DNA of 64,000 nt from an uncultured Thermoplasmata archaeon (GCA_963773945.1 CAVZDD010000004.1:40795-104794), one strand, 5' to 3'; counted from the stretch's first letter, positions 8,280-51,971 are shown. The notes: generated from the letters alone by a model not told the origin. Made by a program: numbers and translations.

Positions 8280-8295
8280 GCGGAGGGACGGCCCC

Positions 8296-9880: not shown

Positions 9881-10063
9881 GACCTCATGCTCGAGGGCGT
9901 TGAGTTCTAACTCGCGATCCGAATTTCCCAGTGTCCCACCGGCTCTGTCACGGGGGTGACGCAGCCGCCCCCAGAACCCATCGGACCGCTTCGTGCGGGA
10001 AAAGAGTGGCGGGTCGATTGGGCCGGGTCGAAGTCCCCTCCGCTCCCCGACGGGGCGGAGAGT

Positions 10064-10381: not shown

Positions 10382-10501
10382 TCACCCCCGCGACGCCCGG
10401 CGGAACTTTACACTTCCGTTGCCGGTCGGGCGGACCGCGTTTCGCTCGAACGTTTGAATTGCCGGCATAGCCTTTTGCACGCTACCGGATTGCCGCCCGC
10501 C

Positions 10502-13678: not shown

Positions 13679-13692
13679 CCGGGGGGAGAGCC

Positions 13693-14871
13693 ATGGTCGA
13701 CTGGAATGCCATCGACTGGAACGTCGTGGTCCAGGCGATTCTTTTTGCGCTCTTCACCGCCGGAACGGCGATACTCAACCTCGTGATCCAACCGACCTAT
13801 GACAACCTCATCGTCCCAGAACTTTCAGCTCCGGCGCTCTTTCCCTCGATCGCCCACTCCGGCCCGAATGCAGGGTTCCTATCGGTCGCGATACAGTTCA
13901 GTGACTTCCTGCTCCAGAACCTCGTCGACCCGGCGATTGCCTTGGTCCTGGTGGGTCTCGCGGGTCTCTACCTCTTCCGGTCGTTCTCGAACCGAATCGG
14001 GAGCCGACTCGAACCGTTGCTTCCCCGGTTAGTCATCGCGCTGCTGGGCGCGAATTTCACGCTTCCCCTCGCCGCTTCGGTGTTGGATCTGGGGGGAACG
14101 ACCTTCCGACTAGTCTCGAGCTTCGACGGAGGGGCCTGGCGGCATTGGGCAAACATCCTGCCGGACGGTGGAGCCAGCTTTTCCTGGGATAACGGGGTCC
14201 TCGCCTTCGTGGTCACCTTCGCACTCTTCGCGATGGTGCTGGCGCTGGCCACCGTCGTCGCCCTCCGGGACGCGATGATCGCCGTCTTGCTCGTGCTTCT
14301 CCCCATCTTCACGCTCCTGTGGGCCTTCCCGCCACTTGCGTCGCTCGCTCGGCGGGGGTGGACCCTGCTCGTTGAGCTCGCCTTTCTTCCCGCGGTGATT
14401 CTGATTCCGCTCGAGCTCGCGGTCGGAGCCCCGTCTGTGCTGCTCGTCCTCGCGTATCTGTCGATTGCCGTGGGATCTCCGTATCTCATCTCCATCTCTC
14501 GGACTCAGCTGGGGGGGCTGGGATTTCCCTCGGCCGGAGGAGCTCTCACGGGGGGGCTCCAGCGTGGTCTCACCGTCGCTTCACTGACTACCCAAGGTGG
14601 AGTGAACTCCCTCGCCCCGAGCGTCACCGCTCCCGGGCGGGCGGGTCAGGTGGGCTCCGCGGCTCGGAGTCTGTCGAGTCATCTCGGCAAGGGGCCACTC
14701 CCGGCCGGCCTGGCACTCGGAGCCGGCCAACTCGTGACGCAGGGTTCCCGTCACCTGCTCCAACATCTACGTCAATTCCGGGCCGCCACGACGTCGGTGC
14801 CGGCCCACTCTTCCTGGTCCGTGCGCCCGGAGGGACCTCCGGCCGGCGGAGGTCCCGGGGGTCCGGGGTAG
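13693..14871 (+). CDS. polytopic membrane protein, VirB6/TrbL/CedA-like candidate
   Basis: 392-aa ORF with at least 6 hydrophobic helices and a Gly/Ser/Ala-rich C-terminal tail. It sits between the pilin-like and VirB3/VirB4-like genes. The assignment rests on topology and synteny. Confidence 0.45.
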   Translation: MVDWNAIDWNVVVQAILFALFTAGTAILNLVIQPTYDNLIVPELSAPALFPSIAHSGPNAGFLSVAIQFSDFLLQNLVDPAIALVLVGLAGLYLFRSFSNRIGSRLEPLLPRLVIALLGANFTLPLAASVLDLGGTTFRLVSSFDGGAWRHWANILPDGGASFSWDNGVLAFVVTFALFAMVLALATVVALRDAMIAVLLVLLPIFTLLWAFPPLASLARRGWTLLVELAFLPAVILIPLELAVGAPSVLLVLAYLSIAVGSPYLISISRTQLGGLGFPSAGGALTGGLQRGLTVASLTTQGGVNSLAPSVTAPGRAGQVGSAARSLSSHLGKGPLPAGLALGAGQLVTQGSRHLLQHLRQFRAATTSVPAHSSWSVRPEGPPAGGGPGGPG

Positions 14872-14874
14872 GCC

Positions 14875-15630
14875 ATGGGAATCGGTACCGCGGACCTGGG
14901 GGCTATCCCAATCCTTCAACTGGCCCCACGTCGGCTCCATCTGGGCCCCTTCGGGTCCGGCATGGATCTCGCGAAATTTCTGTGCGTCGCCACCATCGGC
15001 GCCGTCGTGGCCGCGGTCAGCTCCGCCGTGGTCTGGTTGCCCTTTCTCGGCGCCGGGGCGATAGTCGCCTTCGTACGCGTCGAGGGACGCAGCCTCGACC
15101 AGTACGCGGTGGGTTACTGCCGGTTTCGGTGGCGCACCTCCGTCGGGTGGAACCGGGCCCCATCGATCCCTCGCGGTGGTCCCCCTCGCGTCCGAGGAGA
15201 AGGTCACGGGAATCTCTCGGTCCGCGCGGGGGGCATTCCCATTGCCTACCTGCCCCCCGCGGACCTGCAACGACTATTCGAGGAATGGCGCTCGACCCTC
15301 GCGGCGTTCGATCGACCCATCGGCCTCCGGATGAGGGGAGAACGGTTCTCCCCACTCCCCTTTCTGCCCCGCTTCGGTAGTTCCACGGTCGGGGAGAACG
15401 TCGCACTCGCATCGTACTGCGAACTCGTCCGGGCCTTGCTCCGCCAACGATACCGGAGAGTCGTCGACCTCATGATATGGGAGGATCCACTCGAGCGACA
15501 CCCGACGAAGTTGGGTATTGAGTCGGACGTGTCGGAGCTGGTCACCGCCCTGGAACGACTGGGGATTCCGGTCACCCGGGCGACCCGCAATCTCCGGGAC
15601 GGCGGACTCGTCCGAGGGGAAGTTTCTTGA
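14875..15630 (+). CDS. VirB3/PrgI-like membrane protein with soluble C-terminal domain
   Basis: 251-aa ORF starting 3 nt after the upstream stop. An N-terminal hydrophobic hairpin 'FLCVATIGAVVAAVSSAVVWLPFLGAGAIVAF' is followed by 'VRVEGRSLDQY'. This resembles PrgI/VirB3 family proteins, which precede VirB4. Confidence 0.45.
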   Translation: MGIGTADLGAIPILQLAPRRLHLGPFGSGMDLAKFLCVATIGAVVAAVSSAVVWLPFLGAGAIVAFVRVEGRSLDQYAVGYCRFRWRTSVGWNRAPSIPRGGPPRVRGEGHGNLSVRAGGIPIAYLPPADLQRLFEEWRSTLAAFDRPIGLRMRGERFSPLPFLPRFGSSTVGENVALASYCELVRALLRQRYRRVVDLMIWEDPLERHPTKLGIESDVSELVTALERLGIPVTRATRNLRDGGLVRGEVS

Positions 15631-15986
15631 CCGCGGGCTCCCGAGAGCCCCCTGCAGGGGAACTCGACCCCCTTCCCGCCGCCACCATCGGGACGCTACT
15701 CGCTAGCGTGACCTCGTTGGTCTGGCCCGAATTGAATTCGGCGGCCGTAAGCCTGGCCGTCCTGGCAACTTTCGTGGTCTGGGTACGGGCGCTGCACGCG
15801 TTCCGTCGACGGCGCACCTCGGGGTATGCCCCGGGCCGGCTCCTTCCGCTGGCGGCCGTAGGGACGGTGGGCTGGAGCGGAGCCTTCCTGCTCGGTACAA
15901 CGTCTCCGGTCGGCCGGGCATTGCTGCTAGGGGTGGTATCGGTAGGTTTGTGGTTCCTGAGCCGACCGGTCAGCGCCGGAATCTGA
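15627..15986 (+). CDS. small integral membrane protein (about 4 TM)
   Basis: 119-aa ORF. Its TTG start overlaps the upstream TGA (TTGA). It ends 1 nt before the ATPase ATG. Confidence 0.45.
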   Translation: MTAGSREPPAGELDPLPAATIGTLLASVTSLVWPELNSAAVSLAVLATFVVWVRALHAFRRRRTSGYAPGRLLPLAAVGTVGWSGAFLLGTTSPVGRALLLGVVSVGLWFLSRPVSAGI

Positions 15987-15987
15987 C

Positions 15988-17766
15988 ATGGCCGAGCACC
16001 GCAGCCCCCTCAACGCTACGGAGGGCCGGTCGTGGCTGGTCCGCGGCGTCCAGGTCGATGCGCCGGTCGTCGTGACACTCCTCCCTCCTGCCGTGCCGTT
16101 CGGTTTCCTGGGCCGGGTGCTACCGACGACCGAACCGGTGGAGCTCCGGCTCACCTTCCGCAAGCTTTCGAGGACGGACGCGCTCGAAGTGGCCGAAAAG
16201 GCCGCCGCGGTGGCGGAAGCGGACCTCCAGACCCGCGTCAACAGCCCCGGTGCGCGCCCATCCGAACTCCACCACGACGCGGAGAGCGCCCGAGAACTGG
16301 CGGCACGGGTGGCGAGCCGGGACCAGGACCTCTGGCGCGTGGGGCTGAGCTTCCATGCCCGGGCCCGCGGTCGCGGGAAGGCCGAGCGCGCGCGTTCGCA
16401 CCTGACCCATCGGTTGGGAGAGTTGGGTTTTCGGGTGCGGTTGCCGACCTTCGAGACGGGACTCATTCCGGAGGAACCCAATCCGAGTGAACTTTCGCCG
16501 TGCCCGACCGGGTACTGGCACACCCTGGCGACCGACGCGATCGCGGCGCTGTTCCCGTTCGTGGACGAGAGCGTGCACGAACCCGGAGGGATTCTCGTGG
16601 GGTTGCTTCTCGACGACGCGAACCCCGTCTTCCTCAACCGGTGGGCGCATGGAAGCTATTCCTGGGGACTATTCGGAAGCACCGGGGCGGGCAAGTCGTT
16701 CGCCGCGGCCCTTTGGGCCCTTCGCACCCGCTGGAGCCTTCCGGAGACCCAGTTGCTCTTCGTCGACCCGCTGGGAGAATTCGCGCGCTTCACACGGGCC
16801 CTCGGGGGCTCAGTCATCCGCGTCGGTCCGGGGGGTTCCGAGCGGCTAAATCCGTTGGATCCCATTTCCACCGGAGGGGACCGGGCCGCGAAAGCGGGCC
16901 GAGTCGGCACGATGCTCCGGGCCCTGTTTCCCAGTCTCACGGATGCCGAGGGCGCCCTCTTGGACGGACGCTTGAGTCAACTGTACCATCAGGGTCCTAA
17001 GGCCCCGGTTTGGTCCGACCTCCTCGAGACGCTCAACGGCCGACCGGGAGCCGAACGGTTGACCGAACTCCTCGAGGTGTTCCGGCACGGATCCCTCCAG
17101 TACCTCGACGGGCCGACCACCGTATCGCTCGACGGATCCCCGATCACCCTGGATCTCCATGATGTGCCCCCCGAGCAGATGCCGTTCCATCTGACGTACG
17201 CCCTCGATGCGCTCACGGCCCGTCTGCGGGCGGACGATCGTCCGAAGCTCATGGTGGTGGACGAGGCGCACTACCTCCTGCGTCATCCGGCCACGGCCGA
17301 GTTCCTGGATCAACTGGTCCGCCACGTTCGACACTACCATACCGGACTCCTGGTGCTGAGCCAGAATCCGGACGATTTCCTGACCACCGCGGCCGGCCGC
17401 TCCCTGCTTCGGAATCTCCGGGCGACGATTCTCTTGCGCCTCGCGGAGGTTTCGACCGGCACCCAGGATTTCTTTCAACTCACTCCGGCGGAGTCGGAGT
17501 GGCTGCCCCGCGCCCGCTTGCCGGGGGAAGCCGGCTACGCGGAGGCCCTGCTCCGGTTCGGACCAGGCCATCTCCCCATCGCGATTGTCGCTTCCACCCC
17601 CGAATTCGAATGGTTGGCAGGGCTGTTAGGGCAGGGGGGAACCTCGAACGTTCCCGAGGCGGATTCCCTTCGAACGGCACGTTTAAGTCCGCCCGGCCGG
17701 GAAGCCTCGCCCGATGGTGGAGATCGCGGCCGCGACGGAAGAGGGGCCCGCCCGTCGTCGCCGTGA
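15988..17766 (+). CDS. VirB4/TrbE/CedB-type conjugation-family ATPase
   Basis: 592-aa ORF. It has Walker A 'GSTGAGKS', Walker B 'LMVVDEAHYLL' and 'GLLVLSQNPDDF...LLRNLRATILLRL', plus 'ERLNPLDP', as in VirB4/TrbE/TraC ATPases. Confidence 0.75.
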   Translation: MAEHRSPLNATEGRSWLVRGVQVDAPVVVTLLPPAVPFGFLGRVLPTTEPVELRLTFRKLSRTDALEVAEKAAAVAEADLQTRVNSPGARPSELHHDAESARELAARVASRDQDLWRVGLSFHARARGRGKAERARSHLTHRLGELGFRVRLPTFETGLIPEEPNPSELSPCPTGYWHTLATDAIAALFPFVDESVHEPGGILVGLLLDDANPVFLNRWAHGSYSWGLFGSTGAGKSFAAALWALRTRWSLPETQLLFVDPLGEFARFTRALGGSVIRVGPGGSERLNPLDPISTGGDRAAKAGRVGTMLRALFPSLTDAEGALLDGRLSQLYHQGPKAPVWSDLLETLNGRPGAERLTELLEVFRHGSLQYLDGPTTVSLDGSPITLDLHDVPPEQMPFHLTYALDALTARLRADDRPKLMVVDEAHYLLRHPATAEFLDQLVRHVRHYHTGLLVLSQNPDDFLTTAAGRSLLRNLRATILLRLAEVSTGTQDFFQLTPAESEWLPRARLPGEAGYAEALLRFGPGHLPIAIVASTPEFEWLAGLLGQGGTSNVPEADSLRTARLSPPGREASPDGGDRGRDGRGARPSSP

Positions 17767-18249: not shown

Positions 18250-19059
18250 TCACCGGAGCCGACGGCGAGCACGCCCGAGTTCCCGAGCCCGGGTCCGATC
18301 GACCTCGATGCCGATGGCGTCGCGGCCCAACTTCGCGGCTTCCCACAGCGTCGTCCCCGTGCCGGCGAACGGATCGAGGACCGTGTCCCCCCGGATGGAG
18401 AACATCCGGATCAATCGGCGGGGGATCTCCGCCGGGAAGGCCCCGGAACGTCCGCCCCCCTGAGACTGCGGTCGGCCTCGAATTCCCTCCCAGATCTGGG
18501 AGAACCAGAGATCCCGTTCCGCCCGAGTGTACCGACTGGCCCGCCGAACCGGCGATCTGGCCGGTAGCTTGCGGAGTGACCCCTTCCGGAAGAGTAGAAT
18601 GAACTCGCAATCGAGTGTTACATAGGCATTGGGCGGGAGAAACCCGGACCCGAGAAAGGCGTTCGGTTTGTTGGTCGGTTTTTTCCACAAGATGTACGGG
18701 AGCGACCGAAAACCGAGCCCTTCCGCCGCTACGACGGTACGCGCATGGTTCGGCCAGAGCCGAAACTCGCCCCCGACGCTTCGAACGGCGTCCCCTATGT
18801 TGACGGCAAGGATTCCTCCGGGAATCAACGCCCGGTAGCAGCCCGCCCAGACCCGGTCCAGCTCCCGGTGCATCGCCTCAAAATCGGCGGCGCCCCAGGC
18901 CGCGAACAGTTCGTCCCACTGCGGGATCATCGGATACGGCGGTGAGGTGACCACTAGGGCCACCGACCCCGAGCGAACGTCGGCCATGCGACGGGCGTCC
19001 CCGGCGATGATTCGGACCGACCCCGGGGAAGTCAAGGTGGTTCGGGGACGCCGGCTCAC
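18250..19059 (-). CDS. beta-class DNA methyltransferase (N4-cytosine or N6-adenine), no adjacent endonuclease
   Basis: 269-aa ORF with a GTG start. Motif IV 'VVTSPPYP' precedes motif I 'DTVLDPFAGTGTT', which is the beta-class order. Confidence 0.8.
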   Translation of the reverse strand: MSRRPRTTLTSPGSVRIIAGDARRMADVRSGSVALVVTSPPYPMIPQWDELFAAWGAADFEAMHRELDRVWAGCYRALIPGGILAVNIGDAVRSVGGEFRLWPNHARTVVAAEGLGFRSLPYILWKKPTNKPNAFLGSGFLPPNAYVTLDCEFILLFRKGSLRKLPARSPVRRASRYTRAERDLWFSQIWEGIRGRPQSQGGGRSGAFPAEIPRRLIRMFSIRGDTVLDPFAGTGTTLWEAAKLGRDAIGIEVDRTRARELGRARRRLR

Positions 19060-40789: not shown

Positions 40790-42461
40790 ATGGATCCCTC
40801 CCGGCTGACTTCCTTCACGTTTCGGGGCCACTCCGAGTCGGCGGATCCGGAAGAAACGCTCTTGCAGCACCTCGCGCGTCGGGGGCTCCCGACGCTCCAA
40901 CGGTCGATCCGGTATCATCGACCGCGGGCGCCGCTCTGCGGGATCGGACACTGTACGAATTGTCTCGTGCGCGTGAACGGCGAACCGAACGTCCGGGCCT
41001 GCCGTTACGTGCCCCACGCCGGGGACGCGGTGTCGACGATGAACGCGTGGCCGTCCCCGAAGTACGATTGGATGGGAATTCTCGACTTCGTATTCCTCCG
41101 GGGATTGGACACGCTCCACGGGTTCCGCCGCCCGGCGTGGGCGACCCCGGTGCTCCAGGGGGTCGTTCGTCGGCTCGCGGGCTACGGACCGATCTCGACC
41201 GCTCGCGCCGGCCCCCCCTCCGCCGCCCTGCCACCGGTTGAACTCGACGTCCTGGTGATCGGGGCGGGCCCGTCCGGCCGGCAAGCCAGCCAGCGGCTCG
41301 CCGAGGCGGGACGTTCGGTAGGGCTCATCGACCGCGGCTCGATTCCCGCGCCGCCGGACCGTGTACCATTGTTCCCCGGGGTCACCGCGGTGTTCCTTCC
41401 ACCGCCGATCCCCGGCAACACGCGTCCGTTCGAAGTGATTGCACTGGAAGAACCCGATCGCGGCCGCCTGTTCCGGGCCGGAACGGTCGTGGTCGCCTCC
41501 GGCGCCTACGATGCGTCGTTGTTGTTCGCCGGCAACGACCGGCCGGGCGTGATGACCGCGGACGGAGCGGTCGCGATGGCGCCCGGAGACCGCCCACCGC
41601 CCTTCCGGCGAGCATTGATCGTCGGCGGCGGTCCCCGGGCTGCCGAGATGCTCGACCGTTTCGGCGTTCACACCGAGGCGATTGTTGCGCCGGGTCCGAT
41701 CTCGCCCGAAGTCACGCGGCGGGCCTCCGACCTCTCGATCGCCCTCTATCCACGGACCCTCCTGCTGACCGCCTCCGGGCGCGGGCGCCTGCGTCGGGTG
41801 CACCTCATGCCCCGCGGAGGCGGTGCCGAGTTCTCGATTTCCGTCGATGCAATCGTCCTGGCGCATCGCCGGTTGCCTCACACCCAGCTTCTCTCCCAGG
41901 CCGGTGCGCAGATGGAATGGCGGGGAACGGCCGGAAGTTACTTCCCGGTTCTCGCGGCCGGAGGTCGCACCACCGTTCCCGGCCTGTTCGCCATCGGGGA
42001 AGCCGCCGGCTTTGCCGATGGCGTGTCGGCGGAGGCGAGCGGGCTCGCGGCCGCCGATGCGATTCTTGGCCGAGCGGTGCCGCCCCCCGACGATAGGACC
42101 CCGGACGGACCCAACGAGCTCGAGGGGTACTACCGTGAGCTCCTGCGCCATCCGACCGGCCTCGGAAAGCAGGTCGCCTGTGCGTGCGAGGACGTTCTCC
42201 TTTCGGAATTGCGCGAGGCTGTCGACCGCGGATACCGCGGGATGGAAGTGGTGAAGCGGTACACGGGGCTCGGTACCGGGCTCTGCCAGGGCCGGGTACT
42301 GTCTCCCGGACGCGCTGCTCGTGCTCTCGGCGCTGGAAGGCCGACCTCCCCCGGAGGTCGGGTACATCCGGCAACGCCCCCCGGTCGTTCCGACCCCGCT
42401 CTCCGCCCTCGCGGAGCTGCCGGAGCCGGCGCCGGAGATCTCCGCGCCGGGGAGCTCATGA
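40790..42461 (+). CDS. HcnA/HcnB (sarcosine oxidase alpha / proline dehydrogenase alpha)-like iron-sulfur flavoprotein, apparent frameshift
   Basis: It has 'CGIGHCTNCLVRVNG' (2Fe-2S), 'VLVIGAGPSGRQA' (FAD) and a BFD-like 'CACEDV...GTGLCQGR'. After 42292-42301 the sensible reading ('YCLPDALLVLSALEGRPPPEVGYIRQRPP...') is in another frame. That frame ends at TGA 42459-42461, overlapping the next ATG. Confidence 0.7.
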
Positions 42462-43624
42462 TCGGAGCGCCTCGGCCACCGAATCGGATCGTGATCGTGG
42501 GCGCCGGCATCATCGGACTGTTCACCGCCTACCATCTCGCCCGGGCCGGCGCGGGCCCCCTCACGGTGGTGGACCGGGGCTGGCTCTCCAACGGCGCGTC
42601 CGGCCGCAACGGCGGTGGAGTCCGGCAGCAATGGGAGACGCGGGCCACGGTGCGTCTCGCCAAGGAATCCGTGGACGCCTACCGCCGGTTTGGCCGGGAA
42701 TTCGGCTACAACATCTGGTTCCGCCAGGGGGGGTACCTGTTCCTCGCCGAGACGGAGACCGAACGGCAGCATCTCTCTCAAGTGATCTCGACCATTCGAG
42801 CGGAAGGTCTCGAGGGGAAGCTGCTCGCCCCGGAGGAGATCCCGCCGTACGCCCCAGGACTCGAGACTCGGGGCCTCGTCGGCGGGAGTTATCTCCGGTC
42901 CGACGGCACCTTGTACCCTTTTCCTGCGCTCTGGGCCTTGAAGGAGGCGATCACCCGGCTCGGGGTGGACCTCCGACTCGGAACCGATGTGACCGGCGTC
43001 CAGGTCGAGAACGGACGGGTAGCCGGACTCGCCACATCGGCCGGTCCGATCGCCGCGACCACGGTGGTGAATGCGGCCGGGGGCTGGTCGAACGAGTTCT
43101 CCACCTTGGCGGGGCTGCCGACCCCCAACCAGGCCTCCCGCCACGAGATCCTGGCGACGGAGCCGCTCAAACCGTTCCTCGACCCGATGGTCGTCCGTCT
43201 GCGGGATGGACTTTACTTCAGCCAGACCATGCGAGGCGAGATCGTGGGGGGACTCACGATGGCCCATCCGACCGGCACCCGGGCCGGGGTGCCGAGCTCT
43301 CCGGCGTTCCTCCGGACGATGGCCCGCGCGCTGGTAGGAATTTTGCCGGCCCTCCGGCATCTCGGCGTGTTGCGCGCCTGGTCCGGCTTCTACGACGATA
43401 CCCCGGACGGCCTCCCGGTGATCGGAGGAGACCCGCGCCTTCCGGGGTTCGTGCACGCGAACGGGTTCGGTGGTCACGGATTCATGCTCGCGCCGGCCGC
43501 GTCGCGGCGCGTCGCCCAAGCGATTCTCGGAGAGAAGTCCGACCTCGACCCGGGATTGTTCTCGGTCGACCGATTCCTGACGCCGACCGCGAACCGGCCG
43601 GTGGAGGGCCTCCAGCTCGGTTGA
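42458..43624 (+). CDS. FAD-dependent oxidoreductase (DAO family; HcnC / sarcosine oxidase beta / proline dehydrogenase beta-like)
   Basis: It starts at ATG 42458 (MIGAPRPPNR). It has the Rossmann motif 'IVIVGAGIIGL' and the C-terminal 'NGFGGHGFMLAP'. In the raw sequence it is fused in-frame to the upstream ORF, giving 944 aa. Confidence 0.75.
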   Translation: MIGAPRPPNRIVIVGAGIIGLFTAYHLARAGAGPLTVVDRGWLSNGASGRNGGGVRQQWETRATVRLAKESVDAYRRFGREFGYNIWFRQGGYLFLAETETERQHLSQVISTIRAEGLEGKLLAPEEIPPYAPGLETRGLVGGSYLRSDGTLYPFPALWALKEAITRLGVDLRLGTDVTGVQVENGRVAGLATSAGPIAATTVVNAAGGWSNEFSTLAGLPTPNQASRHEILATEPLKPFLDPMVVRLRDGLYFSQTMRGEIVGGLTMAHPTGTRAGVPSSPAFLRTMARALVGILPALRHLGVLRAWSGFYDDTPDGLPVIGGDPRLPGFVHANGFGGHGFMLAPAASRRVAQAILGEKSDLDPGLFSVDRFLTPTANRPVEGLQLG

Positions 43625-45094: not shown

Positions 45095-45196
45095 ATGCTG
45101 CGGGTCCGCGAGCTCTCGGAGGAGGAGGGCCGCGCTCTCTGCCGTCTGGTAGAGCGCTCCAACGACCCCACGGTCGTCAAGTGGATGCGGCACTAG
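45095..45196 (+). mobile_element. possible remnant of an IS630-family transposase N-terminus (33 codons)
   Basis: 'MLRVRELSEEEGRALCRLVERSNDPTVVKWMRH*' resembles the 'LS.EER..L..LVRS..' HTH start of IS630/Tc1 transposases. No catalytic part or inverted repeats were seen. Confidence 0.25.
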
Positions 45197-46302
45197 AGGA
45201 ACTTTCCGGCGCGGATGACGGGAGTCCCATCGATCGCGATCTCGGAGCCGGCGAGCGAAAACCACGTAAAGAAATTCGATCCGTTGCTGCCCTTGAGATG
45301 CCGGTTCCCCCCGATTTGTAGGGAAACGCTCCCCCCCTCGACGGTCTCCAAGTTGGGGACATCCTTGACAGCCGGGTTCAGCCCGAGTTTGAGAGCGCTG
45401 GCACGGTCCTTGCCCGCCGTGCCGTTCCGGTACCGACGGGAAAACTGTTCCTTTCCATACTCGAAGGAGTACGAGGTCAGCTTACCGCCAGCGAATTCGA
45501 GCGTTCCTCCAACGTGCCAGTTCCACCAGATATTTGTCCGCCGGTTCGCGTGGATGCTCCCCTCCGCGGTTTTGGAGTCGAGGGCCACTTCGAGAGTTCC
45601 GGCGGGAATCTGCTGCAGCATGCCAGATGGGGAATCTCCCTTGTTGTATGGGTGGGGCCTCCCGTCAAGCAACCGTGGAGCGACCCCGGCCAGGGCGACT
45701 TCCAGATCGGTTCCGTTGGAGTGGGTGATCCGCACTTTCTTCCCGCGGGAGAGCGCCTTGCCGAGCCGAGCCCCGCTTTTGGCCAACTCCCCCGGTTCGA
45801 CGAGACATCCCTGCAGCACGCTTTCCTCCCACTGCGCGGGGTCCAGGCCCCACTTCTTGGCCCGTCCCTCCGTCACGAACCCCTCGGTCATTCGCACCCC
45901 GCGGAGCCCCGCCTTCCGGGCGACCGCGTACCAGGGCCAGTTCCAGGCGAACGCATCGTCGAGGGCATCCTCGGAATCCTTCTCGATGCGGTCGGCGTCG
46001 CCCGGACCCCAGAAATTCACGTACACATCCGCGGCTTTCAACGCCGCCCACTCCGGGGCGCTCGACTTGCCGAGGAGCTTTGTCTGCCCCCGGTCGATTG
46101 CGCGCCACCACGCGTCCTCGTCGTTTTGGACGAGGAGGACCTTGCCGCCCACACGGCGGACCTCATCGACCATCGCCGAGGCCATCGGCATCGTGTGGTC
46201 CCATGACTCGATGATCGCGTTCTCTCCCGCTCGGACCTTGAGGTACTTGGTCACGATCTTGCGGGCCGCGTCGCGCTGCAGCTTCGAGGGGGTTTCCGGC
46301 AT
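45193..46302 (-). CDS. aminopeptidase, M29 (AmpS/aminopeptidase T)-like
   Basis: 369-aa ORF. The N-terminal 'AARKIVTKYLKVRAGENAII' and the C-terminal 'LQIGGNRHL...IAIDGTPVIRAGKF' resemble the M29 family layout. Confidence 0.6.
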   Translation of the reverse strand: MPETPSKLQRDAARKIVTKYLKVRAGENAIIESWDHTMPMASAMVDEVRRVGGKVLLVQNDEDAWWRAIDRGQTKLLGKSSAPEWAALKAADVYVNFWGPGDADRIEKDSEDALDDAFAWNWPWYAVARKAGLRGVRMTEGFVTEGRAKKWGLDPAQWEESVLQGCLVEPGELAKSGARLGKALSRGKKVRITHSNGTDLEVALAGVAPRLLDGRPHPYNKGDSPSGMLQQIPAGTLEVALDSKTAEGSIHANRRTNIWWNWHVGGTLEFAGGKLTSYSFEYGKEQFSRRYRNGTAGKDRASALKLGLNPAVKDVPNLETVEGGSVSLQIGGNRHLKGSNGSNFFTWFSLAGSEIAIDGTPVIRAGKFL

Positions 46303-47140: not shown

Positions 47141-47650
47141 GTGAGTATATATTCAGCAGGCCCCTGGTTCCCCGGAACGCACATGGTGTCGGTAAGCGCT
47201 CGCACGCACGCCGGGGACGGCCACACGGGCAAGGAAGCCTACACAGCCGAAGGGCGGGCGCTGTGCCCGGTGATGGCCGCAATCTCGATCATCGGAACCG
47301 AGTGGCGACTCGCAATCGCCCATCGACTGCTGGACGGCCCTCAGCGATTCAGCGAGCTCTTGCGTTCGAATTCCCGCCTCAACGCGAAGACCCTGAGTGC
47401 GACGCTGAAGTACCTCGAGAACGCCGGCGTCGTGCAACGCACGGTCGTCAGCACCCGGCCGTTCAGTGTCGTGTACTCGTTGACCGAAATGGGACTCGGC
47501 CTCGCTCCGGCCACGCGCGAGCTGCGCGCCTGGGGCGAGCGGTGGGTCCTGCCCCGCCTGAAGATCAAGGCGGCGAACGCGGCCGCGGCGTCGACCGTAC
47601 CGGCGGTGGCCCCTGCGTTGGCGGCCCCCCCGGGCGGCCGTCGTCGCTAG
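47141..47650 (+). CDS. HxlR-family winged-helix transcriptional regulator
   Basis: 'CPVMAAISIIGTEWRLAIAHRLLDGPQRFSELL...NAKTLSATLKYLENAGVVQRT' is the HxlR signature. ATG 47184 is an alternative start. Confidence 0.8.
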   Translation: MSIYSAGPWFPGTHMVSVSARTHAGDGHTGKEAYTAEGRALCPVMAAISIIGTEWRLAIAHRLLDGPQRFSELLRSNSRLNAKTLSATLKYLENAGVVQRTVVSTRPFSVVYSLTEMGLGLAPATRELRAWGERWVLPRLKIKAANAAAASTVPAVAPALAAPPGGRRR

Positions 47651-48383
47651 CACGTAACACCCCTTCGGAGGCGGTGTTTCACCGCCCCTCCCTCGGCGCC
47701 TCAAATAGGCCGGACCCCGATGAGGCTCCTGCACACCACCCCGAGGGTCCCGCCCTACATCGCATAGGAGAGACGGCACCGCGTCTTTCGCGTGCGGGGG
47801 GACCTTCACCCAGTGTTTTTTCTGGCTCTCCCGTAGCGAGAGCACTTTTCGCCGTTCACCGGCGCCCAAACCGATGGCATCCCCTCGAGGGATTCCGGTC
47901 TGTTCGTCATGTACGGTCCCCGGCCACGCCCCCGCATTCACCCCGCCGCGTTTCTTCCGCACGAAACGTTGCTCCGTCGAATGCGCGTTGGCCCCGGCAC
48001 CCGAGATTTGAGCGCACTCTGGCGACCCCTTCGACCTGGAGGACCCTCTTCCCGGCTCGCCGTCGCCCGTCCCGCTCCAACCCTGCGTCGCTAGCCTCTG
48101 GTTCGAGGTCCTGGGCGGACTCGACCGCCGGAGCTTGGGGAGCCGACCGGCTGCCGGGACCGGGCGCCGATCGGCTCCCCGTTCTGAGGAGATAGCGACT
48201 CAGCTCTTCCCGGTCTGCCTCGACCTGATTCGGCCGTCGAGGGGTGTGACAACGGTCCCGTTGTCACCGTGGACCCCCCGGAACGCCGTTCCCACCGTCT
48301 GACGGGGGCCCTCCGAGCCCGCGTCGCCGGACCCATCGTCTGCCTCCCTCTCCGGCGGGTCCGCCCGGCGGGGGGAGGTCCAG

Positions 48384-48746
48384 GTGTGCATCATGGAACC
48401 CTCTGCGGTCCTCTCAACGGCATCGAGACAACCCGTTCCCGTCGAACCCCTTCGCTGGCTGGACGACGCCGCCGACCCGATCTCCCAAGATTTCGAGACC
48501 CATCCGCAGGTCGACTACATCGGCCGGGTCCGCGTGCCCATTGCGGGGCCGTACCGCCCTTGGGCCCGACTCTACCGGCTCCCGGACTTGCGCCTCGTTT
48601 GGACCGTGCGACTGTGGGACCGAACCCGGGCGGTCCGTCGGGTCACCTCCACTCCCGTCCTCTTGGAGTTCGCTCGGGTCAACCGCCTGCCGACGCTGGC
48701 GTCGCGGGTCCGCTCGCTCGACCTCCGGGGTCGGAGCGACGCGTGA
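48384..48746 (+). CDS. hypothetical small protein, start/stop-coupled to the downstream ATPase
   Basis: 120-aa ORF with coding-like composition. Its TGA (48744-48746) overlaps GTG 48743 of the ATPase reading frame. Confidence 0.5.
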   Translation: MCIMEPSAVLSTASRQPVPVEPLRWLDDAADPISQDFETHPQVDYIGRVRVPIAGPYRPWARLYRLPDLRLVWTVRLWDRTRAVRRVTSTPVLLEFARVNRLPTLASRVRSLDLRGRSDA

Positions 48747-51409
48747 AGGCGACCCGGTCGCCCCCTCTCCCGGCGTATCGACTCGCGCCCGGCACCGGAC
48801 CCCGCTGGCTCGAACCCTTCCTGGCCCGGATGGTCGAGCGCCTGCGAGCCGGCCGAGTGGGCGACGCCTTGCTCATCGAGCAATGGTGGGACGGCCACTC
48901 CGGCGAAGTCCGTCTGCTTCCGTTCTCCATCGACCTTGCGCTGGCGATGGAAACGCTCGGGGAAAGTATCCCGATCCGATGGTCTCCGCGCTTGAGGGAC
49001 CACTCGAGTGAGCCGCCCCCCGGACTCGAGGAAGAATGGTTCCGAGTCGTCGGGTCCTCTCTTCGAGATTCCCGACCCGAGACTCCTAGGGTCGTCCCCC
49101 CCACGCGAGTCCCCGTCGACCGGAAGGAAAGTTCTCCGGGCGCAACGGCGTCGCCGGAAGCGGCGATGCTCCCCGCGAACCTTCTCCCGGTCGGTACGCC
49201 CTTCTGGGTAGCCCTGCAGACCCACTGGACGACGGGACCGGATGGCGAGGTGTGGGCCACGGTTCGGGGAAGGCTGGCCGCGGGCAATACCCCACAGCTC
49301 CGGGCCCTCGGGTCGGCGGTGGCTGTCCAGTTCCGCCGCTTCCGCTCGGGAACGTCCGACGCGCCGCTGGAGCTTCGCCGGATTCGATTCCCTCGACGAT
49401 GGCGGCACGTATGGGTCTCGGGGGCGCGTCCGTGGTGGGATGCGACGCGCTCGATTGCGCTCGGTCCGGATCTCGTGGCGGCGTCCGTCCCGTTTCCGAT
49501 GGGACCCGATCCGGACGACGACCCGCGCCTCCGGCATGCGGTGGTGTTGGGAGCCTCGGGGTCTGGCAAGACGGCGGCGCTCGCCCAGCTCGCGCGGCAG
49601 GCGCTCGGGGAAGGGCGCTCGGTCGTTCTCTTCGATGTCCACGGCGACCTCGCCCCTCGGGTCAGCTCCGGGCTTCCCCCCGCCCTCCGGGAACGCCTGG
49701 TCGGCATCGATGTGACCGGAACCCCCCGCGCCCTGCCGGGCCTTTCGGTCTTCGGTCCGGTACCCCGCGAGGACCAGGAGGCGCTCGTGGCGCATCTCGT
49801 AGCGGCCCTCAAGCGACTTTCCACCGAAAACGGAGAGACGTTCTGGGGATTCCGTCTCGAGCGGTTATTCGAGACCTTCCTGCACATCGTCCAGGCCCAA
49901 GGCGGGGACCTGGTCGACCTGTGGAGTTTGTTGACCGATCCCCGACGCCGCGACGCCGCTCGGCTCACGACCGATCGACCCGAGATCGCACGATTTCTCG
50001 AGGACCTCGATGGGATCGTGCGTCGTCAACCGGAGTTCCTCTGGCCGGCCGCCTCTCGCGTGGCCAAGGTCGTCGCCTCGCCGCTGCTCGCCGCCCTCCT
50101 CGCCCCGCAGGAGCGTTCCCTCGAAGTCGGGGAGCGGTTGCTCCACGGCGATTCCACGATCTGGCGCCTCCCGATCGGCGAGCTGGGTCCGGAGGGGGTA
50201 ACCTTCGCGGTGACCCTGTTACTGACCCGGGTCTACCTCGAGGAAGTTCGTCGCGCCTCGCACGCGGGGCCGGCGCCCGAGCTCCGGGTTTTGTTCGTGC
50301 TCGACGAGGCCCACCTGTTCCCCGCTCGTCTTTTGAGTGAGATCGTCGCCGAGGGGCGAAAGTTCGGCCTAGGGCTGGTCCTCGCGACGCAGTACCCCAC
50401 CCGACTCGCCCTCGAATTACGGGAGGCGCTCACCGGAGCGGCCGGCACCGTCTACCTGTTCCGGGTACCCTGGGCTTCGGCCGTGGCGACCGGCAGCTGG
50501 GCGGGTCTCGGTCCGGACACCGCGCAGAGGACCCTCCCCTTCCTTCCCCCCGGTTGGGCGGTGGTCAGCTCGACCGGCCCGAATGCCGACCGGCGCCTCG
50601 TCGCCATGCCTCCGAGCCCGCCGGCGGATCTCCACGCCTGGCAATCCATCGTGCAGCGATCCGCCGACCTTTACGGGTCGCCGGTCCAGTACGGGGCCGG
50701 GGGAGAAACCGGCTCGGCCGATCAGTTGGAGGAAACCCTCCTCCTCGGATTGGTCGGTCTCGACGCCGAAGGGGGGGCCGCCACGCGCTCCCGATTGTTG
50801 CGCTGGGCCGACTTCGACGACCGCTTGGATCCGGTGCTCGCCGTGCAGGCCCTCGAGGGCCTTCACCGGCGCGGCTGGGTCTCCCGGAGCGGGGAGGCGC
50901 TCTTCCTCTCGCCGGCCGGTGCTGACCGCATCGGACTCAGCGCCCGGACCGGCGCCCGGCCGGAGAGTGTGGAACATCGCGCGTTGCTGGTGGCGGCCCT
51001 TCGCATCTTCGCGCATCACCACGAACGGCTCGAGATCCTCCGTCAGGGTCGATTCGACACGCGGCTGCCCGACGGACGCGTCCCCCTGCTGCCTCCGCCC
51101 CACCGGCGCGGGAGTCCGGCGGAACTCGCGGACTCCCTGGACCGACGCCGAGCGGATTGGCTCTGGCGCTGCTTTGGGGGTCGGGATGTCCACGTAGAGG
51201 CGGAAGTTTCCGGCGCTACGCGTCGGGAACGGATCGAACGCGATTGGACGAAGGCCCGGGACGCTGGAGCCTTTCTCCTCGTGCTCGTCGGCGACGCCGG
51301 CCGCGCTCGGTCGGTGCGTCGGTACCTGCAGCGCCTCGACGTCCCGCGAACCCGGGCCGCGGTCTGGACGCTTCCATCCGCCCGCAACGTCTTACCGACT
51401 CGGGACTGA
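48743..51409 (+). CDS. HerA/FtsK-superfamily (DUF87 / TraG-like) P-loop ATPase with C-terminal wHTH and PD-(D/E)xK-like domain
   Basis: It has Walker A 'VVLGASGSGKT', Walker B 'VLFVLDEAHLF' and 'GRKFGLGLVLATQYPTRL...TVYLFRV' (HerA/DUF87-like). The C-terminus has a wHTH-like 'RSRLLRWA...ALEGLHRRGWVSRSGEALFLSPAG'. This is followed by 'SVEHRALL...LPDGRV...DVHVEAEVSG', an E/D/E.E nuclease-like pattern. The ORF is open from 48269, but that part looks non-coding. Confidence 0.65.
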   Translation: MKATRSPPLPAYRLAPGTGPRWLEPFLARMVERLRAGRVGDALLIEQWWDGHSGEVRLLPFSIDLALAMETLGESIPIRWSPRLRDHSSEPPPGLEEEWFRVVGSSLRDSRPETPRVVPPTRVPVDRKESSPGATASPEAAMLPANLLPVGTPFWVALQTHWTTGPDGEVWATVRGRLAAGNTPQLRALGSAVAVQFRRFRSGTSDAPLELRRIRFPRRWRHVWVSGARPWWDATRSIALGPDLVAASVPFPMGPDPDDDPRLRHAVVLGASGSGKTAALAQLARQALGEGRSVVLFDVHGDLAPRVSSGLPPALRERLVGIDVTGTPRALPGLSVFGPVPREDQEALVAHLVAALKRLSTENGETFWGFRLERLFETFLHIVQAQGGDLVDLWSLLTDPRRRDAARLTTDRPEIARFLEDLDGIVRRQPEFLWPAASRVAKVVASPLLAALLAPQERSLEVGERLLHGDSTIWRLPIGELGPEGVTFAVTLLLTRVYLEEVRRASHAGPAPELRVLFVLDEAHLFPARLLSEIVAEGRKFGLGLVLATQYPTRLALELREALTGAAGTVYLFRVPWASAVATGSWAGLGPDTAQRTLPFLPPGWAVVSSTGPNADRRLVAMPPSPPADLHAWQSIVQRSADLYGSPVQYGAGGETGSADQLEETLLLGLVGLDAEGGAATRSRLLRWADFDDRLDPVLAVQALEGLHRRGWVSRSGEALFLSPAGADRIGLSARTGARPESVEHRALLVAALRIFAHHHERLEILRQGRFDTRLPDGRVPLLPPPHRRGSPAELADSLDRRRADWLWRCFGGRDVHVEAEVSGATRRERIERDWTKARDAGAFLLVLVGDAGRARSVRRYLQRLDVPRTRAAVWTLPSARNVLPTRD

Positions 51410-51426: not shown

Positions 51427-51971
51427 ATGCGCGCATTCGTGGCCGTCGACCTTCCGCCCTTGCGGGAGCCCCTCCCCCCGGTCTCCGGCCGGAGGACCAC
51501 CTCACACTCCATTTCTTTGAGGACCTCTCGGTCGACCGGATTCCCACCGTGGTGGACGCCCTGCGCGAGACCGCCGCCTCTACGGGCCCCTTTGGGCTGG
51601 AGATCCGCGGGGTGGGGGCCTTCCCGAATCCCCAGCGACCTCGCGTGGTCTGGGCCGGCGTGGGGGACGGTTCGGAGACGCTCCAAGGGGTGGCGACGCG
51701 GCTGCGTCAGGGGCTCTCCTCCCGCGGGTTTCCCACGGAACTTCGACCGTTCGTGCCACACCTCACTCTCACCCGCATCCGGTCCCCCCGCGAGGCGAGC
51801 TGGGCGCACCGATTCCTCGCCGATCCGGACAACACGACGCGCGTCTGGACCCGGGCCACGGTCTCGGAGCTCCTGCTCCAAGAGAGCGATCTCCTCCCCA
51901 CGGGGGCCCGCCATACGGTCCGGGAACGGGTGGCCCTGGGAGCAGGAGCGCGGCCCTCGGAGGGGTCCTAG
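51427..51971 (+). CDS. RNA 2',3'-cyclic phosphodiesterase (LigT/ThpR, 2H family), apparent frameshift
   Basis: The start 'MRAFVAVDLPP' is at ATG 51427. The two H.T(L) motifs 'HLTLHF' and 'HLTLTRI' are in the frame of ORF 51549..51971. The frames join at the C6 run 51474-51479. Confidence 0.75.

What the first reader, a model, noticed from the sequence alone, without database searches (positions are those of the whole stretch)
48384..51409. HerA/FtsK-type ATPase fused to wHTH and a nuclease-like domain, start/stop-overlapped with a small upstream protein
The 888-aa reading frame from GTG 48743 overlaps the stop of a 120-aa ORF (GTGA). The centre carries Walker A GASGSGKT, Walker B VLFVLDEAH and the HerA/DUF87-like GRKFGLGLVLATQYP block. 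The N-terminal 330 or so aa have no motif I recognise. The C-terminus has a winged-helix-like segment followed by an E...PD...E.E pattern (SVEHRALL / LPDGRV / VHVEAEVSG). That pattern is reminiscent of PD-(D/E)xK nucleases with the Lys replaced. ATPase-plus-nuclease combinations of this superfamily occur in DNA end processing, in conjugative TraG-like proteins of archaeal plasmids and in defence systems. This particular fusion with a small partner is not something I can assign to a named system.
Basis: partly seen in the sequence, partly recalled or inferred. Interest (0 to 1): 0.65.

Follow-up and report, generated by a model that had tools for sequence, protein, structure and literature searches.

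The report
DNA-pump ATPase fused to a nuclease
A soil archaeon (Thermoplasmata, order Lutacidiplasmatales) carries a conserved core operon for a small basic protein, an 888-residue soluble DNA-pump ATPase that ends in a DNA-binding domain and a probable nuclease, and a LigT phosphoesterase; sister lineages add a DNA methyltransferase, which points to an undescribed methylation-linked DNA-cutting motor.

Summary
A 117-aa ORF (ATG 48393..48746) overlaps by GTGA an 888-aa ORF (48743..51409). That ORF has four parts:
- a new alpha/beta N-domain (aa 1-255);
- a soluble FtsK-HerA-superfamily ATPase core, closest to type IV coupling proteins (aa 259-625);
- a winged helix (aa 654-733);
- a domain with PD-(D/E)xK layout (aa 735-880), carrying invariant E741, H745, D777, E819-x-E821 and K837.

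The N-domain, the nuclease-like domain and the small protein have no homologs by sequence outside this family. The family occurs only in Thermoplasmata: 147 species genomes, one locus per assembly among the 79 listed. It tracks the neighbouring SHMT gene, so it is vertically inherited and not a mobile island. LigT follows directly in all but a few loci.

In two deep sister branches, two different PF01555 DNA methyltransferases sit immediately after the ATPase. One is 49% identical to this window's own conserved methyltransferase (18250-19059), which lies next to a T4SS-like pilus operon.

The best reading is a ring DNA translocase with a nuclease fused to it and a link to methylation. Its biological role is unresolved: restriction-like, DNA-transfer processing, or repair. 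The nuclease fold has only moderate support. I class it as a new variant of the ATPase-nuclease module.

The parts
48393..48746 (+). Small basic partner protein. It is 117 aa with pI 11.1 and no TM helix. A variable N-terminus of about 45 aa is followed by a conserved core of about 70 aa (G.vRlPlagpyrPwA.LYr.PDGrllW.vRLWe.dRaV...). It has no homologs by sequence outside this family.
   Evidence: The stop TGA overlaps GTG 48743. ATG 48393 is conserved in relatives and GTG 48384 is not. A family HMM finds the protein in 63 of 87 loci. In 31 of 58 loci the overlap is 4 nt, and most others overlap by -13/-16 nt. There is no Pfam or PDB sequence match. pI and hydropathy are.
48743..51409 (+). 888-aa ATPase-wHTH-nuclease fusion protein (whole gene). 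It is soluble.
   Evidence: The maximum Kyte-Doolittle 19-residue window is 1.52, so there is no TM helix.
48743..49507 (+). N-terminal domain, aa 1-255. It is two ferredoxin-like beta-alpha-beta units separated by a disordered loop (about aa 105-153). It is specific to this family.
   Evidence: AF2 model pLDDT 87.3, pTM 0.83. Foldseek against PDB gives only weak hits: an ESX-3 translocon chain 6umm_A (E 7e-4, TM 0.34) and VirB4/TrwK 7o43 (E 0.08). No Pfam or PHROG hit. hhalign to an outgroup coupling-type ATPase stops at aa 259.
49517..50617 (+). FtsK-HerA-superfamily P-loop ATPase core with an all-alpha insert, aa 259-625. Walker A GASGSGKT is at aa 270-277 (49550-49573). Walker B DE is at aa 521-522 (50303-50308). 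GRKFG...ATQ is at aa 538-550.
   Evidence: Pfam PF10412 33.3 bits (cut-off 20.5), PF01935 26.1 bits, PF05872 25.3 bits. PDB profile hits: HerA 8wiv 4e-10, TrwB 1e9r 4e-8. More distant relatives carry TrwB_AAD_bind plus TraG-D_C. hhalign to P0098 gives probability 99.6 over aa 259-605.
50702..50941 (+). Winged helix-turn-helix domain, aa 654-733.
   Evidence: AF2 shows three helices plus a beta-hairpin with block pLDDT of 91-98. BFVD wHTH hits have probability 0.95-1.00 and rmsd 1.8-3.8 A over about 70 columns, for example the SPV1 DNA-binding protein. There is a weak HemN_C (wHTH-like) Pfam hit.
50945..51382 (+). PD-(D/E)xK-like nuclease domain, aa 735-880. E741/E744/H745 lie at the start of helix 1. 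P776-D777 lie just before strand 2. E819-A-E821 lie in strand 3. K837 lies on the following helix.
   Evidence: The AF2 secondary-structure order is alpha-beta-beta-(2 helices)-beta-alpha-beta-alpha-beta; mean pLDDT of the whole aa 650-888 model is 90.4. The catalytic-type residues are invariant in 82 sequences. Nine BFVD hits are nucleases (endonuclease-like, T7 endo I-like, VRR-NUC, restriction endonuclease, FokI) at E 0.04-0.35 and TM 0.2-0.55 normalised to the hit's length. There is no sequence homolog outside the family.
51427..51971 (+). LigT/ThpR-type 2H phosphoesterase (181 aa), 17 nt downstream of the ATPase stop. The window sequence lacks one C of a C7 run after 51473. This is an assembly error.
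   Evidence: Pfam LigT_PEase and 2_5_RNA_ligase2 hit the intact copies. It lies directly downstream in 82 of 87 loci; two of the other five have too little downstream flank. It also lies downstream in the deep branches L007, L097 and L176. The indel is shown.
18250..19059 (-). Conserved beta-class (SPPY) PF01555 DNA methyltransferase, a candidate distant partner. A homolog at 49-50% identity lies immediately downstream of the ATPase gene in loci L095/L096.
   Evidence: Pfam PF01555 3.4e-34. tblastn places the homolog at L095 10627-11418, right after the ATPase at 8001-10565. More than 120 Thermoplasmata clusters are 65-92% identical, and some lie on contigs of the same length as ATPase-bearing contigs. 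The same neighbourhood is seen in another genome.
47183..47650 (+). HxlR-type regulator, a conserved upstream neighbour separated from the operon by about 740 nt. No functional link is shown.
   Evidence: 63-92% identity in nearly all main-clade loci.
48246..48267 (+). Conserved inverted repeat or hairpin (GTGACAAC-GGTCCC-GTTGTCAC) about 125 nt upstream of the small ORF. It may be an operator or a 5'-UTR hairpin.
   Evidence: RNAalifold on five relatives shows 9 pairs, 6 of them with compensatory double changes. The flanking 300 nt have 81% mean column identity.

Best explanation
The locus is a vertically inherited core operon of Lutacidiplasmatales-type Thermoplasmata. It encodes a soluble ring-forming DNA translocase that carries its own nuclease.

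What is shown:
- The 888-aa protein joins a family-specific alpha/beta N-domain, an intact FtsK-HerA/TrwB-type ATPase core, a winged helix, and a C-terminal domain with the layout and invariant acidic, His and Lys residues of a PD-(D/E)xK metal-dependent nuclease.
- Its start overlaps the stop of a small basic partner gene (GTGA), an arrangement that suggests translational coupling. It is followed by LigT.
- In two deep sister branches a PF01555 DNA methyltransferase sits directly after the ATPase. The two branches use two different subfamilies of that methyltransferase.

What is inferred:
- By analogy with TrwB, HerA and FtsK, six subunits form a ring that pumps DNA using ATP.
- The winged helix loads or orients the ring on DNA, as FtsK-gamma and Streptomyces TraB do.
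- The tethered nuclease domains cut the DNA that is reeled in.
- The small protein is a stoichiometric regulator or adaptor.
- The methyltransferase link suggests that cutting depends on methylation state, making this a restriction-like or methyl-directed DNA-cutting motor. It descends from coupling-type ATPases of mobile elements and has become fixed in the chromosome.
- In this genome the matching methyltransferase would be the conserved SPPY enzyme at 18250-19059.
- The role of LigT is unexplained.
For: Architecture and conserved catalytic residues.

Soluble protein: no TM segment.

Nearest outgroups are TrwB_AAD plus TraG-D_C proteins. One sits in an integrated element next to Replic_Relax, an integrase and an excisionase.

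PADLOC's best match is mad8 (1.4e-11). mad8 belongs to the MAD7/MAD8 module of the methylation-associated defence system MADS, which PMC13662399 calls an ATPase-nuclease module.

Methyltransferase immediately downstream in L088-L091 (one PF01555 subfamily, overlapping or abutting the ATPase and LigT) and in L095/L096 (a different subfamily, 49-50% identical to the window's 18250-19059 enzyme).

The window-type methyltransferase is conserved across the order, and some copies lie on contigs of the same length as ATPase-bearing contigs.

Vertical inheritance: 147 species genomes, all Thermoplasmata among the 79 listed (two carry other labels), one locus per assembly among those 79. Synteny is conserved. 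Pairwise distances correlate with SHMT (r=0.62, Mantel p<=0.002).

Conserved overlap with the small ORF.

The ATPase evolves fast for a core gene: mean pairwise distance 0.51 against 0.19 for SHMT.
Against: - No nuclease activity or DNA binding has been shown. Foldseek against PDB gave no nuclease match; the hits were wHTH plus Rossmann O-methyltransferases at TM 0.2. BFVD nuclease hits are weak (E 0.04-0.35).
- The canonical Lys of (D/E)xK is replaced by Glu. K837 as a substitute is inference.
- In this genome and the whole main clade no methyltransferase lies within 6-8 kb.
- The window's methyltransferase is 65-92% conserved across the order. That looks more like a housekeeping enzyme than a restriction-modification partner.
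- Single-copy vertical inheritance across an order is atypical for defence systems.
- One lineage (L054) has the ATPase with no LigT, small ORF or methyltransferase nearby.
- The hexamer and the translocation of DNA rather than RNA are inferred only from homology.
Confidence: 0.5

Rival explanations
1. The protein is the missing coupling and DNA-processing motor of the chromosomal T4SS-like (Ced/Ted-like) pilus operon at 11.6-18.2 kb. The winged helix would recognise a transfer site. The nuclease would nick or cut like a relaxase or an uptake nuclease. The ATPase would feed DNA to or from the VirB4 machine.
For: - The ATPase core is closest to type IV coupling proteins.
- The nearest outgroup is paired with a relaxase-like gene in a mobile element.
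- The methyltransferase that abuts that operon here and in another genome has a 49% homolog directly after the ATPase in L095/L096.
- In the deep branch L176, the HPS-RraA gene lies 2.5 kb from the ATPase operon; in this window it flanks the methyltransferase and pilus operon.
- The N-domain has a weak VirB4/TrwK structural hit.
- In Sulfolobales, DNA import needs a second VirB4/HerA-type ATPase, CedD (PMC11868833).
- An earlier agent reached the same idea on another genome (e1-3587707). That is not independent evidence.
Against: - The ATPase has no membrane anchor.
- It lies 30 kb from the pilus operon, on its own transcription unit.
- No VirB4 homolog lies within 6-10 kb of any of 174 family loci.
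- If both are core genes of the same order, their co-occurrence would carry little information. Co-occurrence outside the order could not be tested because the genome search was shut.
- Matches to CedD and CedB cover only the P-loop (32.7 bits against a cut-off of 600).
Confidence: 0.2
2. It is a housekeeping DNA repair, recombination or segregation enzyme. It could be an analogue of HerA-NurA end resection, or an FtsK-like motor with a built-in junction- or bridge-resolving nuclease, possibly methyl-directed like Dam/MutH.
For: - It is single copy among the listed assemblies, strictly syntenic and vertically inherited in 147 species.
- It is embedded among metabolic and translation genes.
- The HerA profile hits.
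- The motor-plus-wHTH design resembles FtsK.
- The nuclease-like domain is small, and the BFVD nuclease hits include T7 endo I-like and VRR-NUC proteins.
- In L054 an XerA-like recombinase lies 3.8 kb away.
- The methyltransferase is very conserved, which suggests a housekeeping methylation mark.
Against: - The protein diverges much faster than neighbouring core genes (distance 0.51 against 0.19).
- The family is restricted to one Thermoplasmata lineage.
- There is no HAS-barrel, and no NurA, Mre11 or Rad50 neighbour.
- The closest relatives are coupling ATPases of mobile elements, not HerA or FtsK.
Confidence: 0.2
3. The substrate is RNA, not DNA. The motor-nuclease would process or degrade RNA, and LigT would heal or trim the resulting 2',3'-cyclic phosphate or 2'-5' ends.
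For: LigT is the most constant neighbour. It is found in 82 of 87 loci and in deep branches with rearranged flanks. It is tightly packed with, or overlaps, the preceding gene.
Against: - PD-(D/E)xK enzymes are metal-dependent and leave 3'-OH ends, not cyclic phosphates (established knowledge).
- TrwB, FtsK and HerA relatives move DNA.
- DNA methyltransferases in the same operon point to DNA.
- L095/L096 and L054 lack LigT.
Confidence: 0.05

Closest known systems
Type IV coupling proteins (TrwB/VirD4/TraD; Pfam TrwB_AAD_bind, TraG-D_C) and archaeal or MGE 'TraG-family' ATPases
   Same: The P-loop core with its all-alpha insert is homologous over aa 259-605. The nearest outgroups belong to this type and sit in integrated mobile elements.
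   Different: This protein has no N-terminal membrane anchor. No T4SS or relaxase gene is adjacent. It adds a family-specific N-domain, a wHTH and a nuclease-like domain. It is chromosomal and vertically inherited.
HerA-NurA DNA end-resection machine of archaea
   Same: It pairs an FtsK-HerA-superfamily ATPase with a nuclease. Weak HerA profile matches are found.
   Different: The nuclease is fused in cis and is PD-(D/E)xK-like, not NurA (RNase H-like). The N-terminal model shows two ferredoxin-like units and gives no HerA structural hit. There is no Mre11/Rad50 operon.
ATPase-nuclease defence modules: MAD7/MAD8 of MADS, and DUF4297-HerA / Sir2-HerA
   Same: PADLOC's best hit is mad8 (1.4e-11). 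MAD7/MAD8 is called an ATPase-nuclease module of a methylation-dependent system (PMC13662399). Here a methyltransferase joins the operon in sister clades.
   Different: Only the ATPase core matches. There is no eight-gene mad operon. The nuclease is fused rather than separate. The distribution is vertical rather than patchy. No relatives occur in the viral contigs, and only weak ATPase-core matches (24-37% identity over 10-35% of the query) on plasmids.
FtsK (alpha-beta motor plus gamma winged helix) and Streptomyces conjugative TraB
   Same: A ring translocase of the same superfamily is followed by a C-terminal winged helix. In FtsK and TraB that helix reads DNA sequence (established knowledge). 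The wHTH is predicted here.
   Different: There are no membrane segments. A nuclease domain is added. The Pfam FtsK_SpoIIIE score is below its cut-off (12.1 against 24).
CedB/CedD ATPases of the crenarchaeal DNA-import (Ced) system
   Same: These are archaeal VirB4/HerA-type ATPases used for chromosomal DNA exchange (PMC11868833). The top NCBIfam hit is CedD. A T4SS-like pilus operon lies in the same window.
   Different: The match covers only the Walker A region (32.7 bits against a cut-off of 600). Ced proteins lack the wHTH and nuclease domains.

Membership tests
FtsK-HerA superfamily of P-loop pumping ATPases | Walker A, Walker B (hhhhDE), a conserved Arg and a sensor Gln after Walker B, and profile similarity to family models | tested here: met
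   GASGSGKT, VLDEAH, GRKFG...ATQ are invariant in 54 sequences. PF10412, PF01935 and PF05872 score above their gathering cut-offs. PDB profile hits to HerA and TrwB are at 4e-10 to 5e-8.
Type IV coupling protein (TrwB/VirD4/TraD) | Nucleotide-binding domain with an all-alpha domain insert, homologous to TrwB | tested here: met
   PF10412 scores 33.3 bits against a cut-off of 20.5. hhalign to a TraG-D_C/TrwB_AAD protein gives probability 99.6 over aa 259-605.
Type IV coupling protein (TrwB/VirD4/TraD) | N-terminal transmembrane anchor | tested here: not met
   The maximum 19-residue hydropathy is 1.52, and it falls inside the ATPase core. The N-terminal 255 aa model as a soluble alpha/beta domain.
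Type IV coupling protein (TrwB/VirD4/TraD) | Encoded with T4SS and/or relaxase genes | tested here: not met
No VirB4 homolog lies within the flanks of 174 loci. The neighbours are HxlR, LigT and metabolic genes.
HerA helicase | N-terminal HAS-barrel and a NurA/Mre11/Rad50 gene neighbourhood | tested here: not met
   The N-domain model shows two ferredoxin-like units and gives no HerA structural hit. The neighbourhood lacks NurA, Mre11 and Rad50. NCBIfam HerA scores are 28-30 bits against cut-offs of 800-970.
PD-(D/E)xK nuclease superfamily | Core alpha-beta-beta-beta-alpha-beta fold | tested here: inconclusive
   The AF2 model (mean pLDDT 90.4 for aa 650-888) has the right order of elements. 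BFVD hits include nine nucleases, but only at E 0.04-0.35 and TM 0.2-0.55 normalised to the hit's length. The PDB search of the two-domain model returned no nuclease.
PD-(D/E)xK nuclease superfamily | Catalytic signature: an acidic residue on helix 1, (P)D before strand 2, and (D/E)xK in strand 3 | tested here: inconclusive
   E741, P776-D777 and E819 are invariant and correctly placed. The Lys position is Glu (E821). An invariant K837 on the next helix could replace it, as relocated lysines do in some families. That step is inference.
Winged helix-turn-helix | Three-helix bundle plus a beta-hairpin wing | tested here: met
   H5-27, H33-40, H48-61, E64-67 and E70-73 of the model. Foldseek probability is 0.95-1.00 and rmsd 1.8-3.8 A to viral wHTH proteins.
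Restriction-modification-like or MADS-type defence system | Cognate DNA methyltransferase encoded next to the nuclease/ATPase | tested here: not met
   No methyltransferase lies within 6-8 kb in this genome or the main clade. One is present directly downstream only in the sister branches L088-L091 and L095/L096.
Restriction-modification-like or MADS-type defence system | Patchy, horizontally mobile distribution; match to curated defence models over the full length | tested here: not met
   The family is vertically inherited and syntenic. PADLOC hits cover only the ATPase core. There are no relatives in the viral contigs and only weak ATPase-core matches on plasmids.

The most novel reading that the evidence does not exclude
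The small protein, the ATPase-wHTH-nuclease, the conserved SPPY methyltransferase and the chromosomal VirB2/B3/B4/B6-like pilus operon form one domesticated DNA-exchange apparatus of Lutacidiplasmatales. In it a soluble coupling-type motor with its own nuclease replaces the relaxase plus T4CP pair, and methylation marks self or transferable DNA.
Probability: 0.2. Interest if true: 0.8.

Novelty: new variant of a known kind. Interest (0 to 1): 0.6.

Why it matters
ATPase-nuclease pairs built on FtsK-HerA motors recur in DNA repair (HerA-NurA), in conjugation and in newly found defence systems. This is an undescribed fused version. Its N-domain, nuclease-like domain and small partner have no relatives by sequence. 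It has also been fixed as a core gene in a whole order of abundant, uncultured soil archaea.

If it cuts DNA according to methylation state, it would be a domesticated restriction-like machine. If it serves the neighbouring T4SS-like pilus, it would be the first candidate DNA-processing motor of an archaeal chromosomal DNA-exchange system outside the Crenarchaeota. Either outcome can be tested with ordinary expression and assays of ATPase, nuclease and methylation.

Tried and rejected
1. Foldseek of the wHTH-plus-nuclease model against PDB. The top 50 hits were small-molecule O-methyltransferases (wHTH plus Rossmann) at TM about 0.2 and rmsd about 16 A. I rejected these as an architecture artefact.

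2. Sequence and profile searches of the nuclease domain alone, the N-domain and the small protein against Pfam, PHROGs, PDB sequences and the 5.8-billion-protein collection. They returned nothing outside the family. Short 'stand-alone' hits are contig-end fragments, many annotated as partial or on contigs of a few kb or less.

3. hhalign of the nuclease profile against one PDDEXK_1 protein. No signal.

4. Membership in a known defence system (PADLOC) or in the NCBIfam equivalogs CedD, CedB, HerA or TraD. Only P-loop-level scores, far below the cut-offs.

5. A virus or plasmid origin. There were no relatives in IMG/VR, and only ATPase-core matches of 24-37% identity over 10-35% of the query on plasmids.

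6. An RNA element in or around the locus. Rfam found none.

7. Orthology between the two methyltransferases seen next to the ATPase. They share only motif-level similarity, so they are different subfamilies.

8. Genome-wide co-occurrence with the pilus operon. This could not be run because the genome search and the fetch from genomes were shut.

9. The identity of the ESX-3 chain hit by the N-domain was not resolved, and the match is weak (TM 0.34), so I built nothing on it.

Full report
**Observation.** In this 68% G+C window the + strand carries an open frame whose biologically supported start is GTG 48743 and whose stop is at 51407-51409. A small ORF ends with TGA 48744-48746, so the two genes overlap in GTGA. 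GC by codon position fits coding sequence in both frames. The identical 888-aa product is called on a 2.0-Mb ENA contig, an NCBI MAG contig and a Logan contig. About 100 full-length homolog clusters (830-907 aa) align from residue 4-10 onward. An alignment of the upstream region from five relatives conserves ATG 48393 but not GTG 48384, so the partner is 117 aa.

**Anatomy of the large protein.**
- *aa 1-255.* AlphaFold2 with a 60-sequence alignment gives a confident model (pLDDT 87.3). It shows two ferredoxin-like beta-alpha-beta units split by a disordered loop. Foldseek finds only weak neighbours: an ESX-3 translocon chain (E 7e-4, TM 0.34) and VirB4/TrwK (E 0.08).
- *aa 259-625.* This is a P-loop core of the FtsK-HerA superfamily. 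TrwB_AAD_bind, DUF87 and HerA_C pass their Pfam cut-offs. A PDB profile search hits HerA and TrwB. More distant relatives in a 1.84-billion-protein library carry TrwB_AAD_bind plus TraG-D_C. Profile-profile alignment to one of them covers aa 259-605 only. The protein has no hydrophobic segment.
- *aa 650-888.* This region models at pLDDT 90.4 and pTM 0.87 as a winged helix followed by an alpha-beta-beta-(two helices)-beta-alpha-beta-alpha-beta domain. The invariant residues fall where a PD-(D/E)xK enzyme keeps its metal ligands. E741, E744 and H745 lie at the start of the first helix. P776-D777 lie just before strand 2. E819-A-E821 lie in strand 3. K837 lies on the next helix.

**How well the nuclease fold is supported.** Foldseek against BFVD returns wHTH proteins at probability 0.95-1.00 and rmsd 1.8-3.8 A. 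It also returns nine nucleases (endonuclease-like, T7 endo I-like, VRR-NUC, restriction endonucleases, FokI), but only at E 0.04-0.35. Foldseek against PDB with the two-domain model gave only wHTH-plus-Rossmann methyltransferases at TM 0.2, which I regard as an artefact of the architecture. The winged helix is therefore well supported and the nuclease fold moderately supported. By sequence the nuclease domain, the N-domain and the small protein have no relatives outside this family.

**Distribution and inheritance.** A scan of one genome per species found relatives in 147 genomes. The 79 listed loci all come from different assemblies. All are Thermoplasmata MAGs apart from one record titled only 'Methanobacteriota' and one titled 'bacterium'. 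Some carry isolate names such as AcS5-107 and SubAcS15-31, and one is titled Candidatus Lutacidiplasmatales. The neighbourhood DUF4147 - p194 - HxlR - small ORF - ATPase - LigT - a 715-aa membrane protein - SHMT is kept almost everywhere. Pairwise distances of the ATPase correlate with those of SHMT (r=0.62), HxlR (r=0.52) and LigT (r=0.61), all at Mantel p<=0.002. The ATPase diverges much faster than SHMT, however (0.51 against 0.19). No relative occurs in IMG/VR, and only weak ATPase-core matches occur on plasmids. This is a vertically inherited core locus, not a mobile island.

**Partners.**
- *Small ORF.* An HMM detects it in 63 of 87 loci. In 31 of 58 loci it overlaps the ATPase start by 4 nt, and in most others by 13-16 nt. 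A subclade lacks a detectable copy.
- *LigT.* It lies directly downstream in 82 of 87 loci; two of the other five have too little downstream flank. It stays there in deep branches whose flanks are rearranged: L007, L097 and L176.
- *The exception.* L054 is the one locus where the ATPase stands alone. It sits between Pus10/L21e/RpoF/KsgA and PrsW, TtuA and an XerA-like recombinase.

**The methyltransferase clue.** In branch L088-L091 (33-36% identity to the window protein) the order is small ORFs - ATPase - PF01555 N6/N4 DNA methyltransferase - LigT, with overlapping or abutting genes. In a different branch, L095/L096, the ATPase is followed at once by another PF01555 enzyme. That enzyme is 49-50% identical to the window's own methyltransferase at 18250-19059. 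The two methyltransferases share only motif-level similarity, so the adjacency arose with two different enzymes. The window-type enzyme has an SPPY motif. It is 65-92% identical in more than 120 Thermoplasmata clusters, and some copies lie on contigs of the same length as ATPase-bearing contigs. The nearest outgroup of the ATPase core sits in an integrated element beside Replic_Relax, an integrase and an excisionase.

**Interpretation.** The molecular reading I commit to is a ring DNA translocase of coupling-protein ancestry with a sequence- or structure-reading winged helix and a cis nuclease, working with a co-translated small basic protein. The ring and the DNA substrate are inferred from homology. 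Nuclease activity is inferred from fold order and invariant residues.

For the biological role I favour a methylation-linked, restriction-like or methyl-directed cutting function (about 0.5 including the molecular model). The reasons are the two independent methyltransferase adjacencies, the mad8-type best match in PADLOC (MAD7/MAD8 is called an ATPase-nuclease module of a methylation-dependent system, PMC13662399) and the fast divergence.

Rival roles:
- *DNA-processing motor for the T4SS-like pilus (0.2).* This is supported by the coupling-protein ancestry, the methyltransferase that bridges the two loci and the L176 synteny. It is weakened by the lack of a membrane anchor and of any adjacency to VirB4.
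- *Housekeeping repair or segregation (0.2).* This is supported by strict vertical inheritance. It is weakened by lineage restriction and fast evolution.
- *An RNA-directed role with LigT (0.05).*

An earlier agent working on another genome proposed the transfer-motor idea. I treat that as a lead only.

**Comparison with known systems and novelty.** The protein is a member of the FtsK-HerA superfamily and, at the level of its core, of the TrwB/TraD branch. It fails the other defining features of a coupling protein, namely a membrane anchor and a T4SS/relaxase context. It also fails those of HerA (HAS-barrel, NurA context). It does not match any curated defence system beyond the P-loop. The domain combination, the two domains and the partner that have no relatives by sequence, and the fixation in a whole order make it a new variant of the ATPase-nuclease theme.

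**Limits.** The nuclease domain was not modelled on its own. No transcript data were found.

Noticed in passing
window 51427-51971 (indel after 51473): The LigT gene is split in the window assembly by a missing C in a C7 homopolymer. Two other assemblies and four read-based contig sets carry the extra C and give an intact 181-aa LigT. This is an assembly error, not a pseudogene.
   Followed up: yes
window 48246-48267: An inverted repeat or hairpin, GTGACAAC-GGTCCC-GTTGTCAC, lies about 125 nt upstream of the small ORF. Six of its nine pairs show compensatory double changes among five relatives. The surrounding 300 nt of 'non-coding' DNA have 81% mean column identity. It could be an operator (an HxlR regulator is the upstream gene) or a 5'-UTR structure.
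   Followed up: partly
window 18250-19059 (-): This SPPY-motif PF01555 methyltransferase is unusually conserved: 65-92% identity in more than 120 Thermoplasmata clusters. It keeps its position between the HPS-RraA gene and the pilus-like operon in another genome (L175). It behaves like a core orphan methyltransferase.
   Followed up: partly
window 40790-43624: The 944-aa Fer2/Pyr_redox/SO_alpha_A3/DAO 'fusion' is two genes (551-576 aa plus 387-389 aa, overlapping by 4 nt) in relatives L001, L002 and L008. The fusion in this assembly is probably another frameshift artefact, as an earlier first-reader note suggested.
   Followed up: no
window 45193-46302 (-): The 369-aa gene, with only a weak M29-peptidase hit (E 0.0026, below the Pfam cut-off), between DUF4147 and p194 has no counterpart at this position in any of about 80 related loci. 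It is seen only in this strain's own assemblies, so it is a lineage-specific insertion into an otherwise fixed gene order.
   Followed up: no
L054 (JAKAPG010000001.1) 5116-7881 and flanks: One Thermoplasmata lineage carries the ATPase-nuclease gene alone, without the small ORF, LigT or the usual neighbours. It lies between a Pus10/L21e/RpoF/KsgA cluster and PrsW, TtuA and an XerA-like tyrosine recombinase.
   Followed up: partly
L092 (Ga0307372_10000074) 8001-12444: The nearest outgroup of the ATPase core is a 1227-aa DUF8128 plus TrwB_AAD plus TraG-D_C protein. It is followed by a Replic_Relax gene inside an integrated element with an integrase, an HTH_17 excisionase and transposases. A second TrwB-like gene lies 7.5 kb downstream.
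   Followed up: partly
L095 (Ga0326728_10000712) 3125-4072 (-) and 11687-16372 (-): The 57% G+C sister-branch locus has a second PF01555 methyltransferase 4 kb upstream of the ATPase. It also has a 1561-aa ORF with no Pfam hit directly after the ATPase-methyltransferase pair.
   Followed up: no
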